DNA from: Candidatus Lloydbacteria bacterium RIFCSPHIGHO2_02_FULL_50_18
Lineage (GTDB): Bacteria; Patescibacteriota; Minisyncoccia; Phycocordibacterales; UBA6899
DNA length: 11,892 nucleotides
Assembly (NCBI GenBank): GCA_001821395.1
Contig: MHLM01000002.1
Coordinates: 1 to 11,892 of the forward strand
Reading direction: 5' to 3'
Shown here: positions 796-11,892 of the stretch, one piece after another
Layout of the letters: every line of letters starts with the position of its first letter
Position numbering within the stretch: position 1 is the first letter of the stretch
Made by a program: the position numbers and the translations under genes
The notes under the pieces: generated by a model
Seen by the model: only the letters and a program-made list of their open reading frames with translations
What the model was told of the DNA's origin: nothing
Databases searched by the model: none

Positions 796-2982
796 CTATT
801 CGCCCATGAGGTAGAGACGCCGAATCTCGTCAATAGAAAGTATGCGATTGTAGACACGGAGATCATCGATGGAACCAGTAAATTGTCTGGTGTTTGCAGC
901 ACTATTTCCTATATAGTATGGGTTCGAGTTACCGACTGGTGCTGAAGGTGTAGTAACTGATATTCCTTTGAATACTCCATCAACGTAAAAAGCAGGAGCG
1001 GTACCGGCACCACCATAGGTCACGAGAACGTGTTGCCATTTATTTTGGACAACGATGTTCGCTGCTGATACAGCCACGTTCGCACCATCAGTGGAAAAAC
1101 TGAGACCATTAGCTACGTTCGAATTATCACAAATAAAGAGGGTACTCCCTTTATCCACAATACGACCTCTCGCACCCCCACTACTGAAGTTTGTCGGGTA
1201 GATCCAAGCTGCAATAGTCATCTGTCCAGTGATATTGAGTGATGCCCCCGTACCAGCATTCACCGAATCATTCACTCCATCGAAACGGAGGGCTTGTCCT
1301 ATCTTGCCGATGGTGGTGGTCGTTGGATTCTGATTCTGAAGGCCGCCATGATTCCCCTGCCCCGAGACGTCACGCACATTCGGCATCATATCCTTGCCGT
1401 CGAAGGTCCACTCGCCCATAAGACCGCTGGTGAGTTCATCGCGGTGCGTGACATTCATTTTGAGCGATGCGCCCATGAGATAAAGGCGCTGCACTTCCTC
1501 AGGAGAGAGGACACGATCATAGACACGGACCTCATCAATGAAACCATCGAAATACTGCACACGGACACCCGAAGTATTCACTACAGAGGAAATCGTTAGT
1601 GGTACTGCTCCATTAAAAAGACTCCCTATGTTGTTTGCACCACTTGTCGCCCCGTTACTCAGTACTCCATCAACATAAACATTCGGATAGACTATTCCGG
1701 TAGCAGAGAATGTCATAGTAATAAAGTGCCAATTCCCATCGTTCACCGTTGCGCTGGATATTCTCGTATTAGCACCTACTCCATCTGCTGAGACTAACGC
1801 CCAGAGAACTCCTGCGTTTGTGCCATTTCCGATACTCAACCAGTATTCTCTGTCATTTCCTTGACTCTTGTATTTTCCGATGACCGTTTGTGCAAGAGTA
1901 GTAGAACTTGTCTTAACCCAAGCCGAAAGAGAGATACTTGCTGAGGGGTTAACTGAAGCAGAATCAGGTATGGTCACATAATCATCCACCCCATCAAAAC
2001 TGAGCCCCTGCCCGATCTTGCCGACGGTCGTGGTCGTTGGATTCTGATTCTGCAAACCGCCATGATTTCCCTGCCCCGAAACATCGCGCACGTTCGGTAT
2101 CATGTCCTTGCCGTCGAAGGTCCACTCGCCCATAAGACCGCTGGTGAGTTCATCGCGGTGCGTGACATTCATTTTGAGCGATGCGCCCATGAGATAAAGG
2201 CGCTGCACTTCCTCAGGAGAGAGTGCGCGACTGTAGATGCGGACGTCGTCAACAACACCATTCGTGTTCCGAGAGGTAACACCATCACTGCCCACAACAA
2301 GACCTATGTTTGTTGAGGCGGATCCAGATACTGTTGTGGTTCCACTGAGCACGCCATCAATATACAAATAAGACACGTTTCCAGAACGTAGACCTAGATA
2401 ATAATGCCACGTATTGTCATTGACGGTTGCTAAAACAGACGAAGCATAGTACAAGGTAGTGCCATTAGAAATAACAAAATCTAACTTATTAGTGCTCGCA
2501 TAACTAAAGCCGTAACCGGCTCCAGCGCCATTGTATGACCGTTTGGCAAGTATTACATTCACCGAACTGCCTTGGGAGGAATATCCTGCTCCCTTCATCC
2601 AGAGTCCTACCGAGAAATCACCAGAACCAAAATCTAGTGCACCAGAAACAGGGTCACCGATATTGACGTAAGCGTCAGTATCAGCACCACCGGGGAAAAA
2701 ATTGAATGCTTGTCCGATCTTTCCGATGGTGGCTGCCGGACCATTGGTGAGTGTTCCATTATTCCCCTGACCGCTCCTGTCGTAGACCGTCGTGCCGGAA
2801 ATATCTTTCCCATCAAAACTCCAATAACCGACGAGTCCGGAATTAAGCCTGTATCCCTGCCATGCATTCACCACGAAATTTGCGAGGGCCGTGCGCTGAA
2901 AAAGCGCAAACGTCATTGCAAATACGACGATGAATACCGCGAGGAAAAGAGGAATGATCTTTGGGGAAATTTTTTTATGCAT
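796..2982 (-). CDS. Secreted protein with three tandem LamG/concanavalin-A-like lectin (LamG_3-type jelly-roll) domains. Distal gene of the array
   Basis: The ORF is intact. I place the start at ATG 2982 (MHKKISPK...) because that N-terminus is shared with the paralog. The ORF track's 2991 is an upstream TTG. Sec signal peptide MHKKISPKIIPLFLAVFIVVFAMTFALFQRTALA, with an AXA cleavage site before NF. Three repeats follow the LamG_3 pattern: G-x-W-x-FDG ... SGQGNxG-L ... GKIGQ-x-FDG ... W-H ... LY-DGV ... D(D/E)VR-Y-R-LS-xE-(V/I). Stop TAG at 796-798. No SD motif upstream. Confidence 0.85.
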   Translation of the reverse strand: MHKKISPKIIPLFLAVFIVVFAMTFALFQRTALANFVVNAWQGYRLNSGLVGYWSFDGKDISGTTVYDRSGQGNNGTLTNGPAATIGKIGQAFNFFPGGADTDAYVNIGDPVSGALDFGSGDFSVGLWMKGAGYSSQGSSVNVILAKRSYNGAGAGYGFSYASTNKLDFVISNGTTLYYASSVLATVNDNTWHYYLGLRSGNVSYLYIDGVLSGTTTVSGSASTNIGLVVGSDGVTSRNTNGVVDDVRIYSRALSPEEVQRLYLMGASLKMNVTHRDELTSGLMGEWTFDGKDMIPNVRDVSGQGNHGGLQNQNPTTTTVGKIGQGLSFDGVDDYVTIPDSASVNPSASISLSAWVKTSSTTLAQTVIGKYKSQGNDREYWLSIGNGTNAGVLWALVSADGVGANTRISSATVNDGNWHFITMTFSATGIVYPNVYVDGVLSNGATSGANNIGSLFNGAVPLTISSVVNTSGVRVQYFDGFIDEVRVYDRVLSPEEVQRLYLMGASLKMNVTHRDELTSGLMGEWTFDGKDMMPNVRDVSGQGNHGGLQNQNPTTTTIGKIGQALRFDGVNDSVNAGTGASLNITGQMTIAAWIYPTNFSSGGARGRIVDKGSTLFICDNSNVANGLSFSTDGANVAVSAANIVVQNKWQHVLVTYGGAGTAPAFYVDGVFKGISVTTPSAPVGNSNPYYIGNSAANTRQFTGSIDDLRVYNRILSIDEIRRLYLMGE
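1391..1508. repeat. 118-nt segment letter-identical to 2105-2222 within the same LamG gene (linker 2 vs linker 1)
   Basis: Read by eye: TCCTTGCCGTCGAAGGTCCACTCGCCCATAAGACCGCTGG...CTTCCTCAGGAGAGAG is identical at both sites. Both encode ...SLKMNVTHRDELTSGLMGEWTFDGKD on the minus strand. Confidence 0.8.
1976..2127. repeat. 152-nt segment letter-identical between the two LamG genes (gene 1 linker 1 vs gene 2 linker 1 at 4444-4595). About 93% identity continues to roughly 2250/4720
   Basis: ACATAATCATCCACCCCATCAAAACTGAGCCCCTGCCCGATCTTGCC...GTCGAAGGTCCACTC is identical at both sites at a constant offset of 2468. The flanking domain cores differ. Confidence 0.8.
2105..2222. repeat. Partner copy of the 118-nt perfect intragenic repeat (matches 1391-1508)
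   Basis: See the 1391-1508 feature. Confidence 0.8.
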
Positions 2983-3242: not shown

Positions 3243-5459
3243 TTATTTGCCCATAAGGTAGAGACGCTGGATCTCGTCGGGAGAAAGTACGCGGTTGTAA
3301 ATGCGGACTTCATCCATTCTCCCAGAAAATAGTCTAAGGCTATCAGCGAAACGTCCAGCAATATAAAGTGGAGTTGAAGCACTTGAACCTATACTCTGCG
3401 TCATGTTTGCAGCAGTGGTTACTTTTACTCCATTAACATAGAAACTTAAAGTTCCACTTCCACTGTAGGTTACGGCAATATGCTGCCAACGATTTAACGT
3501 AATGACATTAGTTGCATATCCATAGTCTACACTAATACTACCCGCAGCATTTACGCCGAAACCAAGACCGGCTGTTGTATTTGTATTATCCAAAAGAAAA
3601 ATATAACCTACATTACTGCCTAGTCTGTCTACAATTCTTGCTCGGTCTCCGAATGAGGTTGGATATATCCAAGCATTTACCGTTATGGCAGTTGTGATAT
3701 TGAGCGATGAGCCAGTCCCAACATTTATTTTGTCATCTACCCCATCAAAATTCAACCCCTGTCCTATCTTGCCGATCGTGGTGGTCGTCGGATTCTGATT
3801 CTGAAGGCCGCCGTTGTTCCCCTGCCCCGAGACATCACGCACGTTCGGTGTCATGTCCTTGCCGTCAAAGGTCCATTCGCCCACGAGGCCACTCGTGAGT
3901 TCATCGCGATGAGTGACGTTTGTTTTGAGTGATGCACCCATGAGATAGAGGCGCTTAACTTCATCGGCAGAGAGGGCGCGGTTGTAGGCACGGACCTCGT
4001 CAAGATTGCCGTCAAAGGGCATACTCCAATCAGAACGAGCGCCGACGACTAAGGCGTTTGACCCTGCGCTAATTGCACTGATACCAACAGTGCTCACTCC
4101 ATTGTCGCCCACCCCAACACCATTAACATACAGCTTCAGCCCACTCGCATTATTCGCCAAAAAAGTGCCGCACACATGTGTCCACACGCTCAGTTGAGTC
4201 GTATTTGACGGAGTTTCGATTCTCGCAGTACCAGTATCGGCACTATCCCAAATAGCAAAAGTGTACACGTCTGTTCGTCCCGAAGAAAAACCAACATCAT
4301 CACGAAAAAGAAGAAAACCGTTACTAGCAACAACGTCTTCCTTTGCAATGATGGCGTCATCGGATGTAATTGACCCATGATAGGCCCAGACACAAACTGT
4401 AAGTTCTGTCGCTGTATCTAAACTATTAATATCTCCCGCACTGACATAATCATCCACCCCATCAAAACTGAGCCCCTGCCCGATCTTGCCGACGGTCGTG
4501 GTCGTTGGATTCTGATTCTGCAAACCGCCATGATTTCCCTGCCCCGAAACATCGCGCACGTTCGGTATCATGTCCTTGCCGTCGAAGGTCCACTCACCAA
4601 CGAGACCCCCGGTGAGTTCATCGCGGTGGGTGACGTTTGTTTTGAGCGATGCGCCCATGAGATAGAGACGCTGCACTTCCTCAGGAGAGAGTGCGCGACT
4701 GTAGATACGAACGTCATCAACAATAACGTTGGCGTTTCTACCTCCATCGAGAGCACTATCGGCACCAATGATAAGACCGGAGGCAGTAGAACATGAGCCA
4801 CTTACTGTTGCGTTCGTACCCCTCACCATTCCGTCTCGATACAATGACATCATACCCCCCGAACGCATTCCGACATAGTGATGCCATGTATTATCATTCA
4901 TGGTGGCTGAAACATCATTAGCAGAATATGCTGTAGTGCCGTTCGCGATAGTAAAAGCCAGTATATTCCCACTGCCATAAGAAAATCCATAACCGGTTCC
5001 GACACTATTGTATGACTTTTTCGCGAGTGCTACATTCACCGAACTACCTTGAGAGGAATATCCAGTTCCTTTCATCCAAAATCCTACCGAGAAATCCCCT
5101 GTTCCAAAATCGAGCATCCCTGAAACGGGATCCCCCATGTTCGCATATGCATTCGTATCGGAACCATTAGGGAAAAAATTAAATGCTTGCCCAATCTTGC
5201 CGATGGTGGCTGCCGGACCATTGGTGAGCGTTCCATTATTGCCCTGGCCACTCCGATCATAGGCTGTTGTGCCGGAGATATCTTTGCCATCAAAACTCCA
5301 ATATCCGACGAGTCCGGAATTAAGTCGATACCCCTGCCATGCATTCACCACGAAATTTGCAAGTGCCGTGCGTTGAAATAGCGCAAACGTCATTGCAAAT
5401 ACGACGATGAATACCGCGAGAAAAAGAGGGATGATCTTTGGGGAGATTTTTTTATGCAT
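3243..5459 (-). CDS. Secreted protein with three tandem LamG/concanavalin-A-like lectin domains. Proximal gene of the array and paralog of 796-2982
   Basis: The start is placed at ATG 5459 (MHKKISPK...), which is the same signal peptide as in the paralog. The track's ORF runs to 5606 only because the frame stays open across the REP and the giant gene's 3' end. The first ~95 aa are near-identical to the paralog, as are the inter-domain linkers, but the cores of domains 1-3 are diverged and domain 2 is essentially a different LamG variant. Stop TAA at 3243-3245. No SD motif upstream. Confidence 0.85.
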   Translation of the reverse strand: MHKKISPKIIPLFLAVFIVVFAMTFALFQRTALANFVVNAWQGYRLNSGLVGYWSFDGKDISGTTAYDRSGQGNNGTLTNGPAATIGKIGQAFNFFPNGSDTNAYANMGDPVSGMLDFGTGDFSVGFWMKGTGYSSQGSSVNVALAKKSYNSVGTGYGFSYGSGNILAFTIANGTTAYSANDVSATMNDNTWHHYVGMRSGGMMSLYRDGMVRGTNATVSGSCSTASGLIIGADSALDGGRNANVIVDDVRIYSRALSPEEVQRLYLMGASLKTNVTHRDELTGGLVGEWTFDGKDMIPNVRDVSGQGNHGGLQNQNPTTTTVGKIGQGLSFDGVDDYVSAGDINSLDTATELTVCVWAYHGSITSDDAIIAKEDVVASNGFLLFRDDVGFSSGRTDVYTFAIWDSADTGTARIETPSNTTQLSVWTHVCGTFLANNASGLKLYVNGVGVGDNGVSTVGISAISAGSNALVVGARSDWSMPFDGNLDEVRAYNRALSADEVKRLYLMGASLKTNVTHRDELTSGLVGEWTFDGKDMTPNVRDVSGQGNNGGLQNQNPTTTTIGKIGQGLNFDGVDDKINVGTGSSLNITTAITVNAWIYPTSFGDRARIVDRLGSNVGYIFLLDNTNTTAGLGFGVNAAGSISVDYGYATNVITLNRWQHIAVTYSGSGTLSFYVNGVKVTTAANMTQSIGSSASTPLYIAGRFADSLRLFSGRMDEVRIYNRVLSPDEIQRLYLMGK
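4444..4595. repeat. Partner copy of the 152-nt perfect inter-paralog repeat (matches 1976-2127)
   Basis: See the 1976-2127 feature. Confidence 0.8.
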
Positions 5460-5529: not shown

Positions 5530-8500
5530 TCACGCGCCTCCCCCGGATGAAATGACGGGGGCAGGAACGTCAGGAACAGGTGCCGTAGGCTCGGAGACAG
5601 GAGCATCGGGAACTGGGGGCGTTGGTTCTGGGACAGGAGTATCGAGAACAGGAGGCGTGGATTCGGAAGTAGGAGGCGTGATGGGTTCTGAAACGAGTGG
5701 TGTAACGGGTTCAGTTACGGTAGAAACCGTTGATTCAGTAACAACGGGTACGCCCGACTCAGTGTTTGTGGTGTCACCGGTACCCACCTCAACAGTCGGC
5801 TGTTCTATTGTAGGTGGTGTTGAGTTTGCGCTCGTACTGCCTCCGGTAGCCCCCTCTTCAGGAGGCAATTCATCAAACGGAGTTCCCGACTGGATTAGGA
5901 GTGCACGCAGTCCCGCCTCGTCGATGCAGACACGCCCGACACATAATTTCTTTGTCTGCACTTCAGGGATCTTGAGCACACCGTTCTCATCGAGCGACCA
6001 GTTGTTTGCAACGCCGCGTAACGAGCCGATCTCAGCGATCGAGAATGACTGCATGTTGATCGATGCATTGGCGAGCATTGTATTGTTCTCAGTATCGACA
6101 GACCAGATATTCCCCAGGTCGACCGATTCGCCCGACACCGCACTTCCGAGCGAGCTCAGCTTGGTCTGCACGAATACGAACAGCTTCATTGTTGTCTCAT
6201 TGTTCACCGTAGCGATATATGGCTCAAGTGCGATACCGACTGTTGGCTCTCCCGGTGCGGCCTTCTTTCCTACTCCAATGACGGATGAAGGAGCGATCAT
6301 GTCTCCCACATGGATCGCACCGCCCTCAAGCGAGACCGTCACCGGGACACGTCCGACAAGCGCGATCGGGATCTGCCGTGCGTTATTCTCGGCAACATCA
6401 TCCTTGATATCGCCCGCGACTTTAAATCCACCGAGAATGACACCCGGATCAGTCGAGACAACACCGAAGAGAATTGGACCGGGAACAGTTTTGTCAAAAC
6501 GCTTCACGAACACGGGATGTGCGGGATCGAGCATGACGATATCGCCCGGCATAGCGGCGCTGTCGAGTGTCGGATACTGCTCGGCAACGTCGATACCGGC
6601 AAGCGATGAACCTTCTCCGTAGATGAACCCTCGCGTGCGTGCTGCAGCAGAACACTCACCACCATCATCGTTCACACAGATGATACCATTCTCAACAATG
6701 AGCGACGCATCGGGAATGTTGGATGAATAATACGGCGTCGTGGAACCGATATTCACGGTTGTTGAACCCACTGTGCCACCTGATAATGCTTCACCCGAGA
6801 TCGTGAGCATAGGGATGCCATCGAGCTGTGCGGAGTAGCGTTCTTTCGTTCCCACTGCGGATAATGAAGTAATGTTCATATCGATCCAGCTCAAAATACC
6901 CGCATCGTTCTCAAATTCCGCAGGACCCGCCTCAAGGTGGTCCACCGACATGTTGACGAACGATGAGGTGGCCGAGGAAGAAGTGGCGGTAAAGAAGTTC
7001 GCAAGTACCTCGCCGACCACAGAGAGTTTCGCCCATGGAGAACTCGTGCCGATCCCCACATTACCATTGTTCAACACCGTGAAGAGCGTGGTCGAGGCGC
7101 TGTTGGCTACTTCAAATGCCATTGAAGTTGCGAGGGTATCCCCTCCCCAGACCGTGAGCTTGGCATAGGGAGAAGAGGTGCCGACACCGAGCTTGCCAGT
7201 GAGTGGCTGGGTGGTGAGGGAAGTGTTTGTTGTGGTGGCAGGAAGGTTGGCAAAGAGGAAGTTGCCGATGTTCATCATGTTGCTCGAGGATACTGCGGGG
7301 AATTTGATGTTGTAGCCCATGCCAATGTTGTTGTAGCCCGTGGTGATGGCGGTGCCTCCGGAGTTTTGGTCATGTCCGAGGAAGATATTGTCATAGCCGG
7401 TAGTGACGTTGAGGCCGGCTTGATAGCCGAGGGCGGTGTTGTATGAGCCAGTATTGTTGAGGAAGAGGGCTTGATACCCCAATGCGTTATTGTATAAGCC
7501 GGTGGTATTGGCGTTGAGGGCGCTTACTCCCAAAGCGGTGTTGTATGAGCCGGTGGTGTTGGAGTAGAGGGCGCTTGCTCCCAATACGTTGTTGTATGAG
7601 CCGGTGGTGTTGGAGTAGAGGGCGTATTGTCCTAATGCAGCGTTGACGCTTCCGTTAGTGTTGGAGTAGAGGGCGGAATATCCCAATGCGTTGTTGCTGG
7701 AGCCAGTGGTGTTGGAGTAGAGGGATTGGTACCCCAATGCATTGTTCGCTGCGCCGGTCGAGCCATTCGTCCCAGAAAGTCCTCTGAGTGCTTGAAATCC
7801 TACAGCAAAATTATCTGTTCCTGACGTTGCATATTGCATTGCGTATTGACCCATCGCAATGTTGTTACCACCAGTAGCCGGTGATCCTCCTGTGAAGGAT
7901 CCGGTGGTGGTTGCTCCCGCATAGTAGAAGTTCATGCGGGTTGAAGAGGCGGCCATACCGAGAACGCCATTCAAGTAGTATCCACCGAGGGAGCTCGTGG
8001 CGTTGAATGCGGTTGCGTTTGGGGTGGAGGTTGGAGCGATAGTCGTGGCACTCGTCCAAGCGGAGAGCATTCCTGCAACACCACCGGAGAGTGATGCACC
8101 TGAAGTGAGGCAGGTGCCGTTCACGGCGAAGCAGCCTGCAGCAAGATTGATGCCACCGGTACTATTGAATGTTGAAGTTGCTGCGGTAAAGTTGATACCG
8201 TTTGTTGTGCCGAGGGAGAGGAGAGAGCCAGGAGTGGTCGAGCCAATTCCCATGTTGCCACTATTTGCGACGGTAAATACTTCATCAGACGAGTTGTTTA
8301 AGCTCATGATCTTGCCTGTTCCCATCTGGGTGGTTGATGCGAGAGCAACGGAGGAGGAGGCGAAGATGGAAAGTGGTGAGTATGCGACTTGTCCGAGTTG
8401 TTTAGTATCGAGCGTGAGCCGATCCCACTCTGTGTATTTCGTGCCGGTTCCGAGGTCATTGATTGACGATGCACCCGTGCCGGAGTATGAGTTGCCGACG

Positions 8501-11500
8501 AGGACGTTGTTGTCGGAGGTGGAGTTGACGATATCGATCGCATAGCCGGTGCCGGCGGTATCGACAATGCTATTGGAAGAAACAACGTTCCCGTCAGAGG
8601 TGATGATGTAGATACTGCTGTTCGCTCCCGCGGCACCGTTATTGTAGAGCGAGTTGGCGGTGACGGTATTGTTTGAGGCGCTGTCGAGGTAGAAGCCATA
8701 GTGACTGTTACTATCCGCAGTATTGCCGGTAAGGGTGTTGTTTGAGGAGAGGTAGATTTTCATACCGTCATAGTTATTTCTCACGGTATTCCCAGTGACA
8801 GTATTATTTAAGGAGGAGAGGAGGTAGATGCCGAAGTTTCCGCTGCTGTTGGCGGTATTGCCTGTGAGGATGTTGTCGTTGGAGGAGGAGAGGGAGATGC
8901 CGATGCTACTGTTGCTATTCGCGATATTGCCGGTGAGGGTGTTATTTAGGGAGGAGAGGAGGGAGATGCCGATGGCGTTGATGTTCGCGGTGTTTCCGGT
9001 GAGGGTATTGTTTGAGGAGGAAGAGAGGTAGATGCCATTGCCGTTGTTGCTATTCGTAGTATTGCCGGTGAGGGTGTTATCGTTGGAGGAGGAGAGGAAG
9101 ATACCATGGTTGGTAGTGGTGGCAACAGTAATATTTCTGATAGTAGAAGAAGCTACGGAGGTGAATCTGATACCGTTTTGGAAGCCAGTGTTACGCCCTT
9201 GATTTCCATCAACGAAGAGGTCGGCAATGGTGACGTATGAGAGGGTGTTGGCGGCAATAGCATTTGCCGTCGCGTTTGTTGAGGATGCAATATGGATGAC
9301 GGTGGAGTTCCCGAAACCGATGAGGGAAGTGGAGGTTGCCATCTGGATCTTGTCCCCTGCTCCGGTGGAGAGGTAGTAATCTCCTTCCATGAGGTAGACC
9401 TTGCCGCCGCGACCACCTGCGTATGCAGCTTGGAGTGCGGTGTTGATGGCGGTTTCTGCACCTGCGCCGTCTGCGACATAATCTGCGTACGCTTTGTTCG
9501 TGGAGTTTTGTGCTGCGACGGTATAGGTTGCGCCGTCACCATCGGGAGATGCTGCTCCTCCTCCGACACAGACGCCATTCACTGCAAAGCAGCCTGAGGA
9601 GAGTGCGATACCTCCGGCGAATGTACTCGTTGCGCCTCCGGTAACTGCAAGGTTTGAGGTGGTTGCCGTATTGGAGACGATGAAGTTTGAGGTGGAGGCG
9701 AGTCCGTTGTTGAAAATGGAGAAGAGTGAAGTTGAGGCGGAGTTCACTGCTTCAAATGCGCGGGAGGTGTCGAGAGTATCCCCTCCCCAGACGGTGAGCT
9801 TGGCATAGGGAGAAGAGGTACCGACACCGAGCTTGCCGGTCAAGGGTTGAGTGGTGAGGGTTGTTCCGGTGGTGGTCGCAGGAAGGTTGGCAAAGAGGAA
9901 GTTGCCGATATTCATCATGTTGCTTGAGGATACTGCGGGGAATTTGATGTTGTAGCCCATACCGATGTTGTTGTATCCCGTGGTGATGGCGGTGCCTCCA
10001 ACGTTTTCGTCGTGCCCGAGGAAGATGTTGTCGTAGCCGGTGGTGACGTTGTATCCTGCCTGATTACCGAGGGCAGTGTTGTATGAGCCGGTGGTGTTAA
10101 AAATGAGGGAATAATGCCCGAATGCGTTGTTGTATGAACCGATGGTGTTATTGGAAAGTGCACTGCCACCAAATACACTGTTAAATGATCCCGTAGTGTT
10201 TTCTAACATAGATGTTTCACCAAAAGCTGAATTTCCTCCTCCCGTTGTATTTTTTCCTAACGAGTTTGAACCAACAGCAGTGTTGTCACTACCGGAAATA
10301 TTATTGCTTAACGCCCCTGCACCAACACCGGTGTTGTATCCTCCGGTTAAATTTGACTGTAGCACTGCCTCACCGATCGCAGTGTTTATATTACCAGTTG
10401 TATTTTGCATTAAGGTTGATTTTCCAAATGCAGTGTTGAAATTTCCGGTATTCGCCTGTAATGCCCAATAACCGAATGCGGTATTATTAATTCCCGGGGT
10501 ACTACTTGTTCCCGCCCCAAGACCCATGAAAGTATTGTATGTCGTCGACGATGCAGTGATAAATTTTTGTCCATTCCAATAGACATAGCCATCAGTTACC
10601 CCAGTATCAATAGCGATGTTTCCCGCAACGCTGAGTTTTGCCCAGGGAGAGGTGGTGCCAATACCGACGTATCCATTATTTGCAACGGTGAAGACTTCGC
10701 TCGAACTATTGTTGAGCGACATGATCTTGCCACTTCCCATCTGAGTAGTGGACGCAAGCGCGACGGAAGAGGAGGCGAAGATAGCAAGCGGTGAGTATGC
10801 AACTTGGCCGAGTTGCTTGGTATCGAGGGTGAGGCGGTCCCACTGTGTGTATTTGGTGTTAGTGCCGAGGTCCTGAATAGAGGAGGCACCGATACCGGAG
10901 TATGAGTTGCCGATGAGGACGTTGTTGTCGGAGGCGGAGGAGGTGAGATGGATCGCATAACCCGTACCAGCGGTATCTTGGATGATGTTGGAAGAAATGA
11001 CGTTCCAATCAGAAGTTTCGATACGAATACTGCTGTTCGCTGACGCGGCTGTGTTATCAGCAAGCGAGTTGCCAGTGACGGTGTTGTTTGAGGAAGAGGA
11101 AAGGAAAATACCGTAAAAACTATTGTTATTCACGGTGTTCCCAGTGACGATGTTGTTATTGGAGGAGCCAGCGAGGTAGATGCCGGTGTAGCTGTTACTA
11201 TTCGCAGTGTTCCCAGTGACGATGTTGTTTGAGGAGGACATGAGGTAGATGCCGTAGTTGGTGTTGCTATTTACTGTATTCCCAGTGACGATGTTGTTCA
11301 AAGAGGTGGCAGAGAGGAGGAAGCCGTTGTTACCGTTACCACTGAACGTATTCCCAATGACGGTATTATTCAAGGAAGAGACGAGGTAGATGCCAGTGTC
11401 GGTCGTGGTGGCAACCGTAACGTTCCTGATAGTAGAGGAGGAAACGGAAGTAAATTGGATACCAGTTTGTGAACTGGTGTTCCGCCCTCTATTTCCATCA

Positions 11501-11892
11501 ATGAAGAGATCGGCAATTGTGATGTATGAGAGTGTGTTTGCCACGATAGCGTTGGCGGTTGCGTTGGTGGATGACGCAATATGAATGACCGTAGATTGTC
11601 CTGCTCCAATGAGTGATGTTGAGGTTGCCATCTGGATCTTGTCCCCTGCTCCGGTGGAGAGATAGTAGTCTCCTTCCATGAGGTAGACCTTGCCGCCACG
11701 GCCTCCTGCGTATGCAGCTTGGAGGGCGGTGTTGATTGCGGTTTCTGCGCCTGCGCCGTCTGCGACATAATCTGCGTACGCTTTGTTCGTGGAGTTTTGT
11801 GCTGCGACGGTATAGGTTGCACCGTCACCATCGGGAGATGCTGCTCCCCCTCCGACACACGTGCCGTTCACTGCGAAGCAGCCGGCGGAGAT
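5530..11892 (-). CDS. Giant modular surface/fibre-like protein, 5'-partial (at least 2120 aa in the window). Two tandem units of ~763 aa (tailspike/pectate-lyase-like beta-helix + stalk + 17-residue repeat array), a C-terminal globular domain and a Pro/Thr-rich tail
   Basis: One uninterrupted frame runs from the window edge to the stop at 5530-5532. The frame is still open at 11892 (translation ...ISAGCFAVNGTC... matches the internal repeat SSGCFAVNGVC), so the true start lies outside. GDGATYTVAAQ...GAETAINTALQAAYAGGRGGKVYLMEGDYYL is the typical N-cap of the Pectate_lyase_3/tailspike beta-helix family. NxxLTGNTANSNSxYGIYL repeats are PbH1 beta-helix coils. Confidence 0.85.
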   Translation of the reverse strand: MSAGCFAVNGTCVGGGAASPDGDGATYTVAAQNSTNKAYADYVADGAGAETAINTALQAAYAGGRGGKVYLMEGDYYLSTGAGDKIQMATSTSLIGAGQSTVIHIASSTNATANAIVANTLSYITIADLFIDGNRGRNTSSQTGIQFTSVSSSTIRNVTVATTTDTGIYLVSSLNNTVIGNTFSGNGNNGFLLSATSLNNIVTGNTVNSNTNYGIYLMSSSNNIVTGNTANSNSYTGIYLAGSSNNNIVTGNTVNNNSFYGIFLSSSSNNTVTGNSLADNTAASANSSIRIETSDWNVISSNIIQDTAGTGYAIHLTSSASDNNVLIGNSYSGIGASSIQDLGTNTKYTQWDRLTLDTKQLGQVAYSPLAIFASSSVALASTTQMGSGKIMSLNNSSSEVFTVANNGYVGIGTTSPWAKLSVAGNIAIDTGVTDGYVYWNGQKFITASSTTYNTFMGLGAGTSSTPGINNTAFGYWALQANTGNFNTAFGKSTLMQNTTGNINTAIGEAVLQSNLTGGYNTGVGAGALSNNISGSDNTAVGSNSLGKNTTGGGNSAFGETSMLENTTGSFNSVFGGSALSNNTIGSYNNAFGHYSLIFNTTGSYNTALGNQAGYNVTTGYDNIFLGHDENVGGTAITTGYNNIGMGYNIKFPAVSSSNMMNIGNFLFANLPATTTGTTLTTQPLTGKLGVGTSSPYAKLTVWGGDTLDTSRAFEAVNSASTSLFSIFNNGLASTSNFIVSNTATTSNLAVTGGATSTFAGGIALSSGCFAVNGVCVGGGAASPDGDGATYTVAAQNSTNKAYADYVADGAGAETAINTALQAAYAGGRGGKVYLMEGDYYLSTGAGDKIQMATSTSLIGFGNSTVIHIASSTNATANAIAANTLSYVTIADLFVDGNQGRNTGFQNGIRFTSVASSTIRNITVATTTNHGIFLSSSNDNTLTGNTTNSNNGNGIYLSSSSNNTLTGNTANINAIGISLLSSLNNTLTGNIANSNSSIGISLSSSNDNILTGNTANSSGNFGIYLLSSLNNTVTGNTVRNNYDGMKIYLSSNNTLTGNTADSNSHYGFYLDSASNNTVTANSLYNNGAAGANSSIYIITSDGNVVSSNSIVDTAGTGYAIDIVNSTSDNNVLVGNSYSGTGASSINDLGTGTKYTEWDRLTLDTKQLGQVAYSPLSIFASSSVALASTTQMGTGKIMSLNNSSDEVFTVANSGNMGIGSTTPGSLLSLGTTNGINFTAATSTFNSTGGINLAAGCFAVNGTCLTSGASLSGGVAGMLSAWTSATTIAPTSTPNATAFNATSSLGGYYLNGVLGMAASSTRMNFYYAGATTTGSFTGGSPATGGNNIAMGQYAMQYATSGTDNFAVGFQALRGLSGTNGSTGAANNALGYQSLYSNTTGSSNNALGYSALYSNTNGSVNAALGQYALYSNTTGSYNNVLGASALYSNTTGSYNTALGVSALNANTTGLYNNALGYQALFLNNTGSYNTALGYQAGLNVTTGYDNIFLGHDQNSGGTAITTGYNNIGMGYNIKFPAVSSSNMMNIGNFLFANLPATTTNTSLTTQPLTGKLGVGTSSPYAKLTVWGGDTLATSMAFEVANSASTTLFTVLNNGNVGIGTSSPWAKLSVVGEVLANFFTATSSSATSSFVNMSVDHLEAGPAEFENDAGILSWIDMNITSLSAVGTKERYSAQLDGIPMLTISGEALSGGTVGSTTVNIGSTTPYYSSNIPDASLIVENGIICVNDDGGECSAAARTRGFIYGEGSSLAGIDVAEQYPTLDSAAMPGDIVMLDPAHPVFVKRFDKTVPGPILFGVVSTDPGVILGGFKVAGDIKDDVAENNARQIPIALVGRVPVTVSLEGGAIHVGDMIAPSSVIGVGKKAAPGEPTVGIALEPYIATVNNETTMKLFVFVQTKLSSLGSAVSGESVDLGNIWSVDTENNTMLANASINMQSFSIAEIGSLRGVANNWSLDENGVLKIPEVQTKKLCVGRVCIDEAGLRALLIQSGTPFDELPPEEGATGGSTSANSTPPTIEQPTVEVGTGDTTNTESGVPVVTESTVSTVTEPVTPLVSEPITPPTSESTPPVLDTPVPEPTPPVPDAPVSEPTAPVPDVPAPVISSGGGA
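5533..5871 (-). other. Pro/Thr/Glu/Val-rich low-complexity C-terminal tail (aa about 2001-2113). Likely an extended spacer or wall-spanning segment
   Basis: ...TEPVTPLVSEPITPPTSESTPPVLDTPVPEPTPPVPDAPVSEPTAPVPDVPAPVISSGGGA*. Confidence 0.6.
5872..7074 (-). other. C-terminal globular region (aa about 1600-2000) containing the motifs GDIVMLD, GVVSTDPGVILGG, ALVGRVPVTV and GAIHVGDMIAPSS
   Basis: Non-repetitive sequence with mixed composition, distinct from the upstream repeats. The motifs resemble C-terminal domains seen on some phage tail-fibre-like proteins. The family assignment is unverified. Confidence 0.35.
7141..7360. repeat. About 220 nt at roughly 90% identity to 9781-10000. Both encode the conserved junction GYDNIFLGHD...NIGMGYNIKFPAVSSSNMMNIGNFLFANLPATTT...GKLGVGTSSPYAKLTVWGGD
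   Basis: Long identical runs, e.g. GCAGGAAGGTTGGCAAAGAGGAAGTTGCCGAT and GAGGATACTGCGGGGAATTTGATGTTGTAGCCCAT. The period of this segment is 2640 nt, different from the 2289-nt period of the cap, so the duplication is mosaic. Confidence 0.75.
7312..7851 (-). other. Array 2 of about 8 tandem 17-residue repeats of the same family
   Basis: aa about 1341-1520: ANNALGYQSLYSNTTGS / SNNALGYSALYSNTNGS / VNAALGQYALYSNTTGS / YNNVLGASALYSNTTGS / YNTALGVSALNANTTGL ... Confidence 0.7.
8512..9561 (-). other. Beta-helix module 2 (second copy of cap plus PbH1 coils), aa about 771-1120
   Basis: The same cap sequence is repeated 763 aa downstream of the first. The coils are diverged, e.g. NSNSHYGFYLDSASNNTVTAN. 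Confidence 0.6.
9351..9605. repeat. Internal tandem duplication of the giant gene: about 255 nt at roughly 92% identity to 11640-11892. Period 2289 nt = 763 aa
   Basis: GTCCCCTGCTCCGGTGGAGAG...GCGACGGTATAGGTTGC...CACTGC read in parallel at both sites. Both encode the beta-helix cap (GDGATYTVAAQ...KVYLMEGDYYL). Confidence 0.8.
9781..10000. repeat. Partner copy of the 7141-7360 junction repeat
   Basis: See the 7141-7360 feature. Confidence 0.75.
9952..10509 (-). other. Array 1 of about 9 tandem 17-residue repeats, consensus x-(Y/F)-N-(T/N)-A-(F/L/I)-G-x-x-(A/S)-L-x-x-N-T-T-G (51-nt period)
   Basis: aa about 455-640: NFNTAFGKSTLMQNTTG / NINTAIGEAVLQSNLTG / GYNTGVGAGALSNNISG / SDNTAVGSNSLGKNTTG ... 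The register is exact over 8 or more units. Confidence 0.7.
10912..11892 (-). other. Beta-helix module 1 (pectate-lyase/tailspike-like cap plus about 9 PbH1 coils), aa about 1-320 of the visible ORF
   Basis: Cap motif AETAINTALQAAYAGGRGGKVYLMEGDYYL, then repeated N-N-x-(I/V/L)-T-G-N-T-x-N-S-N-x-x-x-G-I-Y-L rungs. Confidence 0.6.
11640..11892. repeat. Partner copy (unit 1) of the 2289-nt-period duplication
   Basis: See the 9351-9605 feature. Confidence 0.8.

What the first reader, a model, noticed from the sequence alone, without database searches (positions are those of the whole stretch)
5530..11892. Giant protein carries two complete tailspike/pectate-lyase-like beta-helix modules in one polypeptide, generated by a mosaic 2289-nt internal duplication
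The N-cap motif GDGATYTVAAQNSTNKAYADYVADGAGAETAINTALQAAYAGGRGGKVYLMEGDYYL occurs twice, exactly 763 aa apart. DNA identity there is about 92% (9351-9605 vs 11640-11892). Each cap is followed by about 9 PbH1 coils that have diverged, for example NSNTNYGIYLMSSSNNIVTGN versus NSNSHYGFYLDSASNNTVTAN. The downstream junction segment is duplicated with a different period of 2640 nt (7141-7360 vs 9781-10000). The gene is therefore a patchwork of duplications and conversions rather than a simple tandem repeat. Two depolymerase-like beta-helices arranged serially along one fibre are unusual, since tailspikes normally carry one. They could give two glycan specificities, or one could be catalytic and one binding. 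Unequal crossing-over between units would vary fibre length.
Basis: partly seen in the sequence, partly recalled or inferred. Interest (0 to 1): 0.65.

Follow-up and report, generated by a model that had tools for sequence, protein, structure and literature searches.

The report
Modular phage-like fibre of ultra-small bacterium
The repeated region is real, but it lies in a chromosomal gene of a Candidate Phyla Radiation bacterium for a giant surface fibre made of at least three tandem phage-fibre-like units, whose beta-helices lack the catalytic residues of their closest enzyme relatives, and such multi-helix giants are common.

Summary
A single minus-strand ORF (5530-11892, open at the window end) contains two collinear copies of a 763-877 aa super-unit: cap, right-handed beta-helix, neck, 17-residue-repeat shaft and junction. 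The changing periods (2289, 2415, 2640 nt) come from indels, namely two extra coils and a 75-aa linker in unit B. Synonymous divergence is patchy (16% in the cap against 55% next to it), which points to local gene conversion.

The window is a whole contig of a Candidatus Lloydbacteria MAG. A sister assembly, 100% identical over 7.2 kb, extends the gene upstream and shows a third unit. The real protein therefore has at least three helices and at least 2810 aa.

Homologues sit among housekeeping genes, have signal peptides and carry 1-4 such helices.

My best reading is a trimeric, phage-fibre-like adhesion fibre, not a double depolymerase. It is a moderately interesting variant of a known kind.

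The parts
11827..11892 (-). End of the linker of an upstream super-unit (unit 0), ISAGCFAVNGTCVGGGAASPDG. The ORF is open here, so the N-terminus lies off the contig.
   Evidence: Translation. The sister contig L013 is 100% identical over 7239 nt and continues 2072 nt further upstream through a third unit.
10846..11826 (-). Unit A cap plus right-handed parallel beta-helix (aa 23-349, about 9 coils).
10618..10845 (-). Unit A neck (aa 350-425), ending in the capping-loop motif VGIGTTSPWAKLSV.
   Evidence: 86-91% aa identity among the three units. This stretch of the module profile matches the Bdellovibrio MAT fibre Bd2133 (8ond) at E 1.2e-7. Low pLDDT as a monomer.
10045..10575 (-). Unit A shaft of 17-residue repeats (aa 440-616), N-x-A-x-G...NTTG.
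   Evidence: Period-17 diagonals and 51-nt repeat family D2. tblastn matches to phage tail-fibre genes at 31-52% identity. PHROG tail-spike and virion-structural families. No Pfam or PDB sequence match.
9778..10044 (-). Unit A junction (aa 617-705), TTGYDNIFLGHD...NMMNIGNFLFANLP...GVGTSSPYAKLTVWGG.
   Evidence: 88-93% aa identity among units. Four-fold site difference is only 17-34%, against about 50% in the neck.
9538..9777 (-). Linker from unit A to unit B (aa 706-785), with the second CFAVNG motif.
8431..9537 (-). Unit B cap plus beta-helix (aa 786-1154, about 11 coils; two extra coils relative to A).
   Evidence: Pfam. Collinear alignment with a 42-aa insertion. AlgE4 catalytic positions are H929, F932 and S957.
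8209..8430 (-). Unit B neck (aa 1155-1228).
7873..8208 (-). Unit B extra linker (aa 1229-1340), with the third CFAVNG motif. Absent from unit A, present in unit 0.
7405..7872 (-). Unit B shaft of 17-residue repeats (aa 1341-1496).
   Evidence: phrog_23837 E 6.7e-53.
7138..7404 (-). Unit B junction (aa 1497-1585).
6592..7137 (-). Pre-chaperone region (aa 1586-1767), with a fifth capping-loop motif. Shared with about a dozen homologues. Fold not resolved.
   Evidence: pLDDT below 50.
6163..6591 (-). Divergent Peptidase_G2-type intramolecular chaperone core (aa 1768-1910). It starts at D1768-V-A-E1771, the putative self-cleavage site I1767|D1768.
   Evidence: A 36-sequence profile hits the phi29 gp12 autochaperone 3gqh at E 1.2e-5, full-length gp12 (residues 686-743) at E 2.2e-5 and the Dpo31 D4 chaperone domain at E 2.4e-5. 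17 of 36 homologous domains match PF11962, best 2.1e-8. D, A and E are invariant. pLDDT 76-93. Foldseek hit to pre-mature gp12 3suc at E 4.6e-3.
5872..6162 (-). C-terminal extension (aa 1911-2007), ending in the Cys motif KKLCVGRVCIDEAGLRALL.
   Evidence: A related motif is present in P0113 and P0029. Function unknown.
5530..5871 (-). Pro/Thr/Glu-rich low-complexity tail (aa 2008-2120) plus the stop codon.
   Evidence: Translation. Similar Pro-rich C-termini in homologues P0005, P0008 and P0009.
3243..5459 (-). Downstream gene for a signal-anchored protein with three LamG (Laminin_G_3) domains. Probable partner. The real start is MHKK at 5459.
   Evidence: Pfam E 1.2e-81. N-terminus. A LamG gene directly follows the giant gene in L012 and L013 as well.
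796..2982 (-). Second, paralogous LamG x3 gene.
   Evidence: 62% identical to the first, with the first 65 aa identical.

Best explanation
The ORF encodes the C-terminal 2120 residues of a giant secreted surface fibre of a Candidatus Lloydbacteria (CPR/Patescibacteria) cell. The full protein has at least 2810 aa.

The fibre is a tandem array of at least three super-units. Each super-unit has a cap and right-handed beta-helix, a neck with a capping loop, a shaft of 17-residue repeats, and a conserved junction. The array is closed by a C-terminal intramolecular chaperone of the phi29 gp12 (Peptidase_G2) type.

Shown here: the array arose by tandem duplication of a super-unit of about 2.3-2.6 kb. 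The units then changed by gain or loss of coils and linkers. The cap and junction are kept more alike at synonymous sites than their neighbours, which is best explained by local gene conversion.

Inferred: the C-terminal domain nucleates trimerisation from the C-terminus, as in gp12, and may then cleave itself off at I1767|D1768. The three chains then form a long fibre in which beta-helix triplets alternate with intertwined fibre segments.

The helices descend from the same stock as the AlgE epimerase A-modules and tailspike helices but have lost the AlgE catalytic set. They most likely act as rigid spacers or glycan-binding surfaces, not as depolymerases.

Inferred function: contact with and adhesion to a host cell or surface by an episymbiotic bacterium, in the manner of the Bdellovibrio MAT fibres. 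The co-located LamG lectin-like proteins would be partners. Unit number, and so fibre length, would vary through unequal recombination.
For: Anatomy and duplication.

Third unit and independent assembly.

Heterogeneous synonymous divergence.

Beta-helix fold and AlgE homology.

Loss of catalytic residues and a charge-free groove.

Peptidase_G2 chaperone homology with an invariant D-x-A-E. [quoted passage not shown]

Capping-loop match to the MAT fibre Bd2133. MAT biology: PMC10769870.

Phage tail-fibre similarity of the repeat shaft.

Cellular origin: the window protein is OGZ10205.1 of a Lloydbacteria MAG. Homologues lie on contigs of 58-462 kb next to SecA, Obg, GatB, GAPDH, transketolase, RelA, TopA and SerRS. 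The order giant gene, LamG, Y1_Tnp recurs in one of them. Full-length homologues have Sec-type signal peptides. There is no IMG/VR match.

Module number of 1-4 in homologues.
Against: - Trimerisation and self-cleavage are inferred only. The window's own C-terminal domain does not reach any Pfam threshold by itself, and its model is confident only for aa 1769-1909.
- The N-terminus of this protein is unknown, so secretion and anchoring are inferred from homologues.
- Loss of the AlgE catalytic set does not exclude a different active site. Unit B has scattered D/H/K/R residues.
- No expression, localisation or host data exist.
- The window itself holds no housekeeping gene.
Confidence: 0.6

Rival explanations
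1. One reading: a tailspike-like fibre with two catalytic depolymerase beta-helices, giving two glycan specificities, or one catalytic and one binding helix.
Confidence: 0.12
2. The contig is a fragment of a phage or prophage wrongly binned with the MAG, and the ORF is a true virion tail fibre or tailspike.
For: Every recognisable module has phage relatives. The 11.9-kb window has no housekeeping gene. The LamG proteins also hit PHROG 'virion structural protein' families.
Against: The same order, giant gene then LamG then Y1_Tnp, occurs inside a 461.7-kb contig among SecA, Obg, GatB, GAPDH and transketolase. Other homologues also have cellular neighbours. Full-length homologues start with Sec signal peptides, which virion fibres lack. 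There is no relative in IMG/VR, and no INPHARED phage covers more than 24% of the protein. No capsid, portal or terminase gene is present in the window or in L013.
Confidence: 0.08
3. It is a structural envelope or S-layer-type protein with no role in recognition. The repeated units would simply build wall-spanning or lattice material.
For: Beta-helix S-layer proteins exist, and S-layers are reported in Patescibacteria (bioRxiv 10.1101/2024.05.28.596244). The Ser/Thr/Asn-rich, charge-poor surface and the Pro-rich tail would suit a wall-associated protein.
Against: A gp12-type intramolecular chaperone, MAT-type capping loops and tail-fibre repeats all point to an elongated trimer rather than a lattice. 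Module content is highly variable between homologues, which is typical of host-interaction proteins.
Confidence: 0.1
4. The internal duplication is an assembly artefact, for example collapsed or chimeric strain variants joined in tandem.
For: The contig ends inside the repeat. Close relatives in other MAGs sit on contigs of only 2-3 kb, so these genes do break assemblies.
Against: An independent assembly from another sample is 100% identical over 7239 nt across both units. The units differ by indels and are only about 45% identical in the repeat shaft. The frame is intact for 6.4 kb. Homologues show the same multi-unit plan.
Confidence: 0.02

Closest known systems
Bacillus phage phi29 gp12 pre-neck appendage (tailspike), PDB 3gq7, 3gqh, 3suc
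   Different: gp12 is 854 aa with one helix, attaches to a virion and is regarded as enzymatically active. Here there are at least three helices, at least 2810 aa, a cellular chromosomal gene, interspersed tail-fibre repeat shafts, and about 210 further residues after the chaperone core. Cleavage has not been shown.
Azotobacter vinelandii AlgE4/AlgE6 mannuronan C-5 epimerase A-modules (PDB 2pyg, 5lw3)
   Different: The catalytic Y149, D152, H154 and D178 are all replaced. Pfam reports no RTX-type calcium-binding R-modules. The window protein has a different partner-domain set.
Bdellovibrio bacteriovorus MAT (mosaic adhesive trimer) fibres, e.g. Bd2133 and Bd3182 (PMC10769870)
   Same: These are cellular, phage-tail-fibre-like surface fibres of a bacterium that lives on other bacteria. 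They share the capping-loop motif (profile hit to Bd2133 8ond, E 1.2e-7; five copies in the window). They are modular and mosaic, and many members have a C-terminal chaperone.
   Different: MATs are about 1000 aa, have triple beta-helix shafts with variable tips and no right-handed beta-helix modules, and use an S74 rather than a G2 chaperone. Their defining N-terminal domain cannot be checked here because the N-terminus is missing.
Streptococcus pneumoniae PfbA beta-helix adhesin (PDB 3zpp, 4mr0)
   Different: It is a single helix on a sortase-anchored monomeric protein, with no fibre repeats and no chaperone domain.
Trimeric autotransporter adhesins (YadA/Hia type)
   Same: They show a repetitive head/neck/stalk logic, in which modules are duplicated to change fibre length. 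Some homologues carry YadA_head repeats and are labelled as such by JGI.
   Different: No beta-barrel anchor domain was found. The YadA_head hits in homologues do not coincide with the 17-residue repeats.

Membership tests
Phage tailspike / depolymerase receptor-binding protein | Right-handed parallel beta-helix (pectin-lyase fold) | tested here: met
Phage tailspike / depolymerase receptor-binding protein | Catalytic acid/base residues in the helix groove | tested here: not met
   The residues of the closest enzyme, AlgE4, are all replaced. No conserved acidic residue in the helix body. A charge-free stretch spans aa 166-278. A different, unrecognised site is not excluded.
Phage tailspike / depolymerase receptor-binding protein | Encoded in a phage genome as a virion component | tested here: not met
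   Lloydbacteria MAG. Homologues in chromosomal context. Signal peptides in homologues. No IMG/VR relative.
AlgE-type mannuronan C-5 epimerase A-module | Sequence and structure homology of the cap plus helix | tested here: met
AlgE-type mannuronan C-5 epimerase A-module | Catalytic Y149, D152, H154, D178 (the YG(F/I)DPH(D/E) motif) | tested here: not met
   hmmalign maps Y149 to T166/H929, D152 to Y169/F932, H154 to no counterpart, and D178 to S194/S957.
AlgE-type mannuronan C-5 epimerase A-module | Accompanying calcium-binding R-modules | tested here: not met
   Pfam reports only Beta_helix and NosD for the whole protein.
Peptidase_G2 intramolecular chaperone domain (PF11962; phi29 gp12 C-terminus) | Significant match to the family model or to its structures | tested here: inconclusive
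   The window's copy alone gives no Pfam hit. A profile of 36 homologous domains, with the window copy first, hits 3gqh at 1.2e-5, gp12 6qz9 at 2.2e-5 and Dpo31 D4 at 2.4e-5. 17 of 36 members hit PF11962, best 2.1e-8. Foldseek gives 3suc at E 4.6e-3.
Peptidase_G2 intramolecular chaperone domain (PF11962; phi29 gp12 C-terminus) | D-x-A-E motif at the start of the domain (gp12 D692-F-A-E695, directly after the cleavage site) | tested here: met
   D1768-V-A-E1771. D, A and E are invariant in 12 and in 36 sequences. 75 of 78 domain instances carry D.AE. The alignment starts at residue 1 of the cleaved gp12 fragment.
Peptidase_G2 intramolecular chaperone domain (PF11962; phi29 gp12 C-terminus) | Self-cleavage, and dependence of trimer folding on the domain | not testable with these tools
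   Needs expression of aa ~1586-2120, with and without D1768A/E1771A.
Bdellovibrio MAT fibre family | Capping-loop motif on a trimeric beta-helical fibre | tested here: met
   Profile hit to Bd2133 (8ond) residues 196-225, E 1.2e-7. G[IVLM]G[TS][TS][ST]P occurs at aa 410, 689, 1215, 1569 and 1613. The spacing of the P differs by one residue from the consensus in PMC10769870.
Bdellovibrio MAT fibre family | Signal peptide followed by the conserved N-terminal domain of about 130 aa | not testable with these tools
   The N-terminus lies off the contig, in the sister contig too. Full-length homologues have a signal peptide and a conserved 'NYQGKLT...YNMRF' domain. Its relation to the MAT domain was not tested.
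Bdellovibrio MAT fibre family | Homotrimer | not testable with these tools
   No multimer prediction is available. The neck is disordered in the monomer model, which fits, but does not prove, an intertwined oligomer.
Trimeric autotransporter adhesin | C-terminal YadA-type beta-barrel membrane anchor | tested here: not met
   No such Pfam domain. The C-terminus is instead a G2-like domain plus a Pro-rich tail.

The most novel reading that the evidence does not exclude
Ultra-small CPR/Patescibacteria cells build their host-contact organelles from phage receptor-binding-protein parts. The fibres would be very long homotrimers in which several non-catalytic tailspike-type beta-helices are strung between tail-fibre shafts, assembled from the C-terminus by a self-cleaving gp12-type chaperone. 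Reach and specificity would be retuned by unequal crossing-over and gene conversion between super-units, together with the adjacent LamG lectin-like genes. This would be a cellular counterpart of phage host-range evolution, and a candidate determinant of which hosts an episymbiont can attach to.
Probability: 0.3. Interest if true: 0.65.

Novelty: new variant of a known kind. Interest (0 to 1): 0.42.

Why it matters
How Candidate Phyla Radiation bacteria recognise and hold on to their hosts is largely unknown beyond type IV pili. This gene, and a very large family around it (over 10,000 sequence clusters), looks like a cellular re-use of the phage receptor-binding toolkit: a tailspike helix, a tail-fibre shaft and a self-processing chaperone.

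The family offers concrete, testable candidates for host-contact fibres. It also gives a clear case of fibre length and composition evolving by tandem super-unit duplication with local gene conversion.

For annotation, the result warns against two habits. 'Beta-helix / tail fibre' calls in such genomes should not be read as phage genes, and they should not be read as depolymerases. Such genes are also usually truncated by assembly, so module counts from single contigs are lower bounds.

Tried and rejected
- Self-BLASTP of the protein returned only the trivial hit. I replaced it with my own windowed dot-plot.
- Pfam at E <= 5 on the neck/repeat/junction/C-terminal segments found nothing.
- phmmer of the repeat shaft plus junction against PDB sequences found nothing.
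- I considered the 17-residue repeats to be YadA-head repeats. The YadA_head hits in homologues lie beside the segments that match the window's repeats, not on them, so this was not adopted.
- The search for related loci with the module alignment failed because no conserved 7-10 column stretch exists. With the single module it found only two close relatives, both on contigs of 2-3 kb, plus generic beta-helix repeats in Asgard and other archaea.
- The IMG/VR scan found no relative.
- The C-terminal AlphaFold2 model is poor overall (pLDDT 53.6). Its Foldseek hits are weak and mix phage decoration proteins with gp12, so it serves only as supporting evidence.
- A single-sequence homologue search with the chaperone core found only four proteins. 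The alignment-based search was needed.
- The original gp12 structure paper (Xiang et al. 2009) is not in the library. The cleavage position was taken from PMC6542822 and from the start of chain 3gqh.
- A weak hit of the chaperone profile to the Aureispira grappling-hook protein GhpA (E 0.032) was not pursued.
- No paper was found linking Patescibacteria to tail-fibre-like or beta-helix giant proteins.
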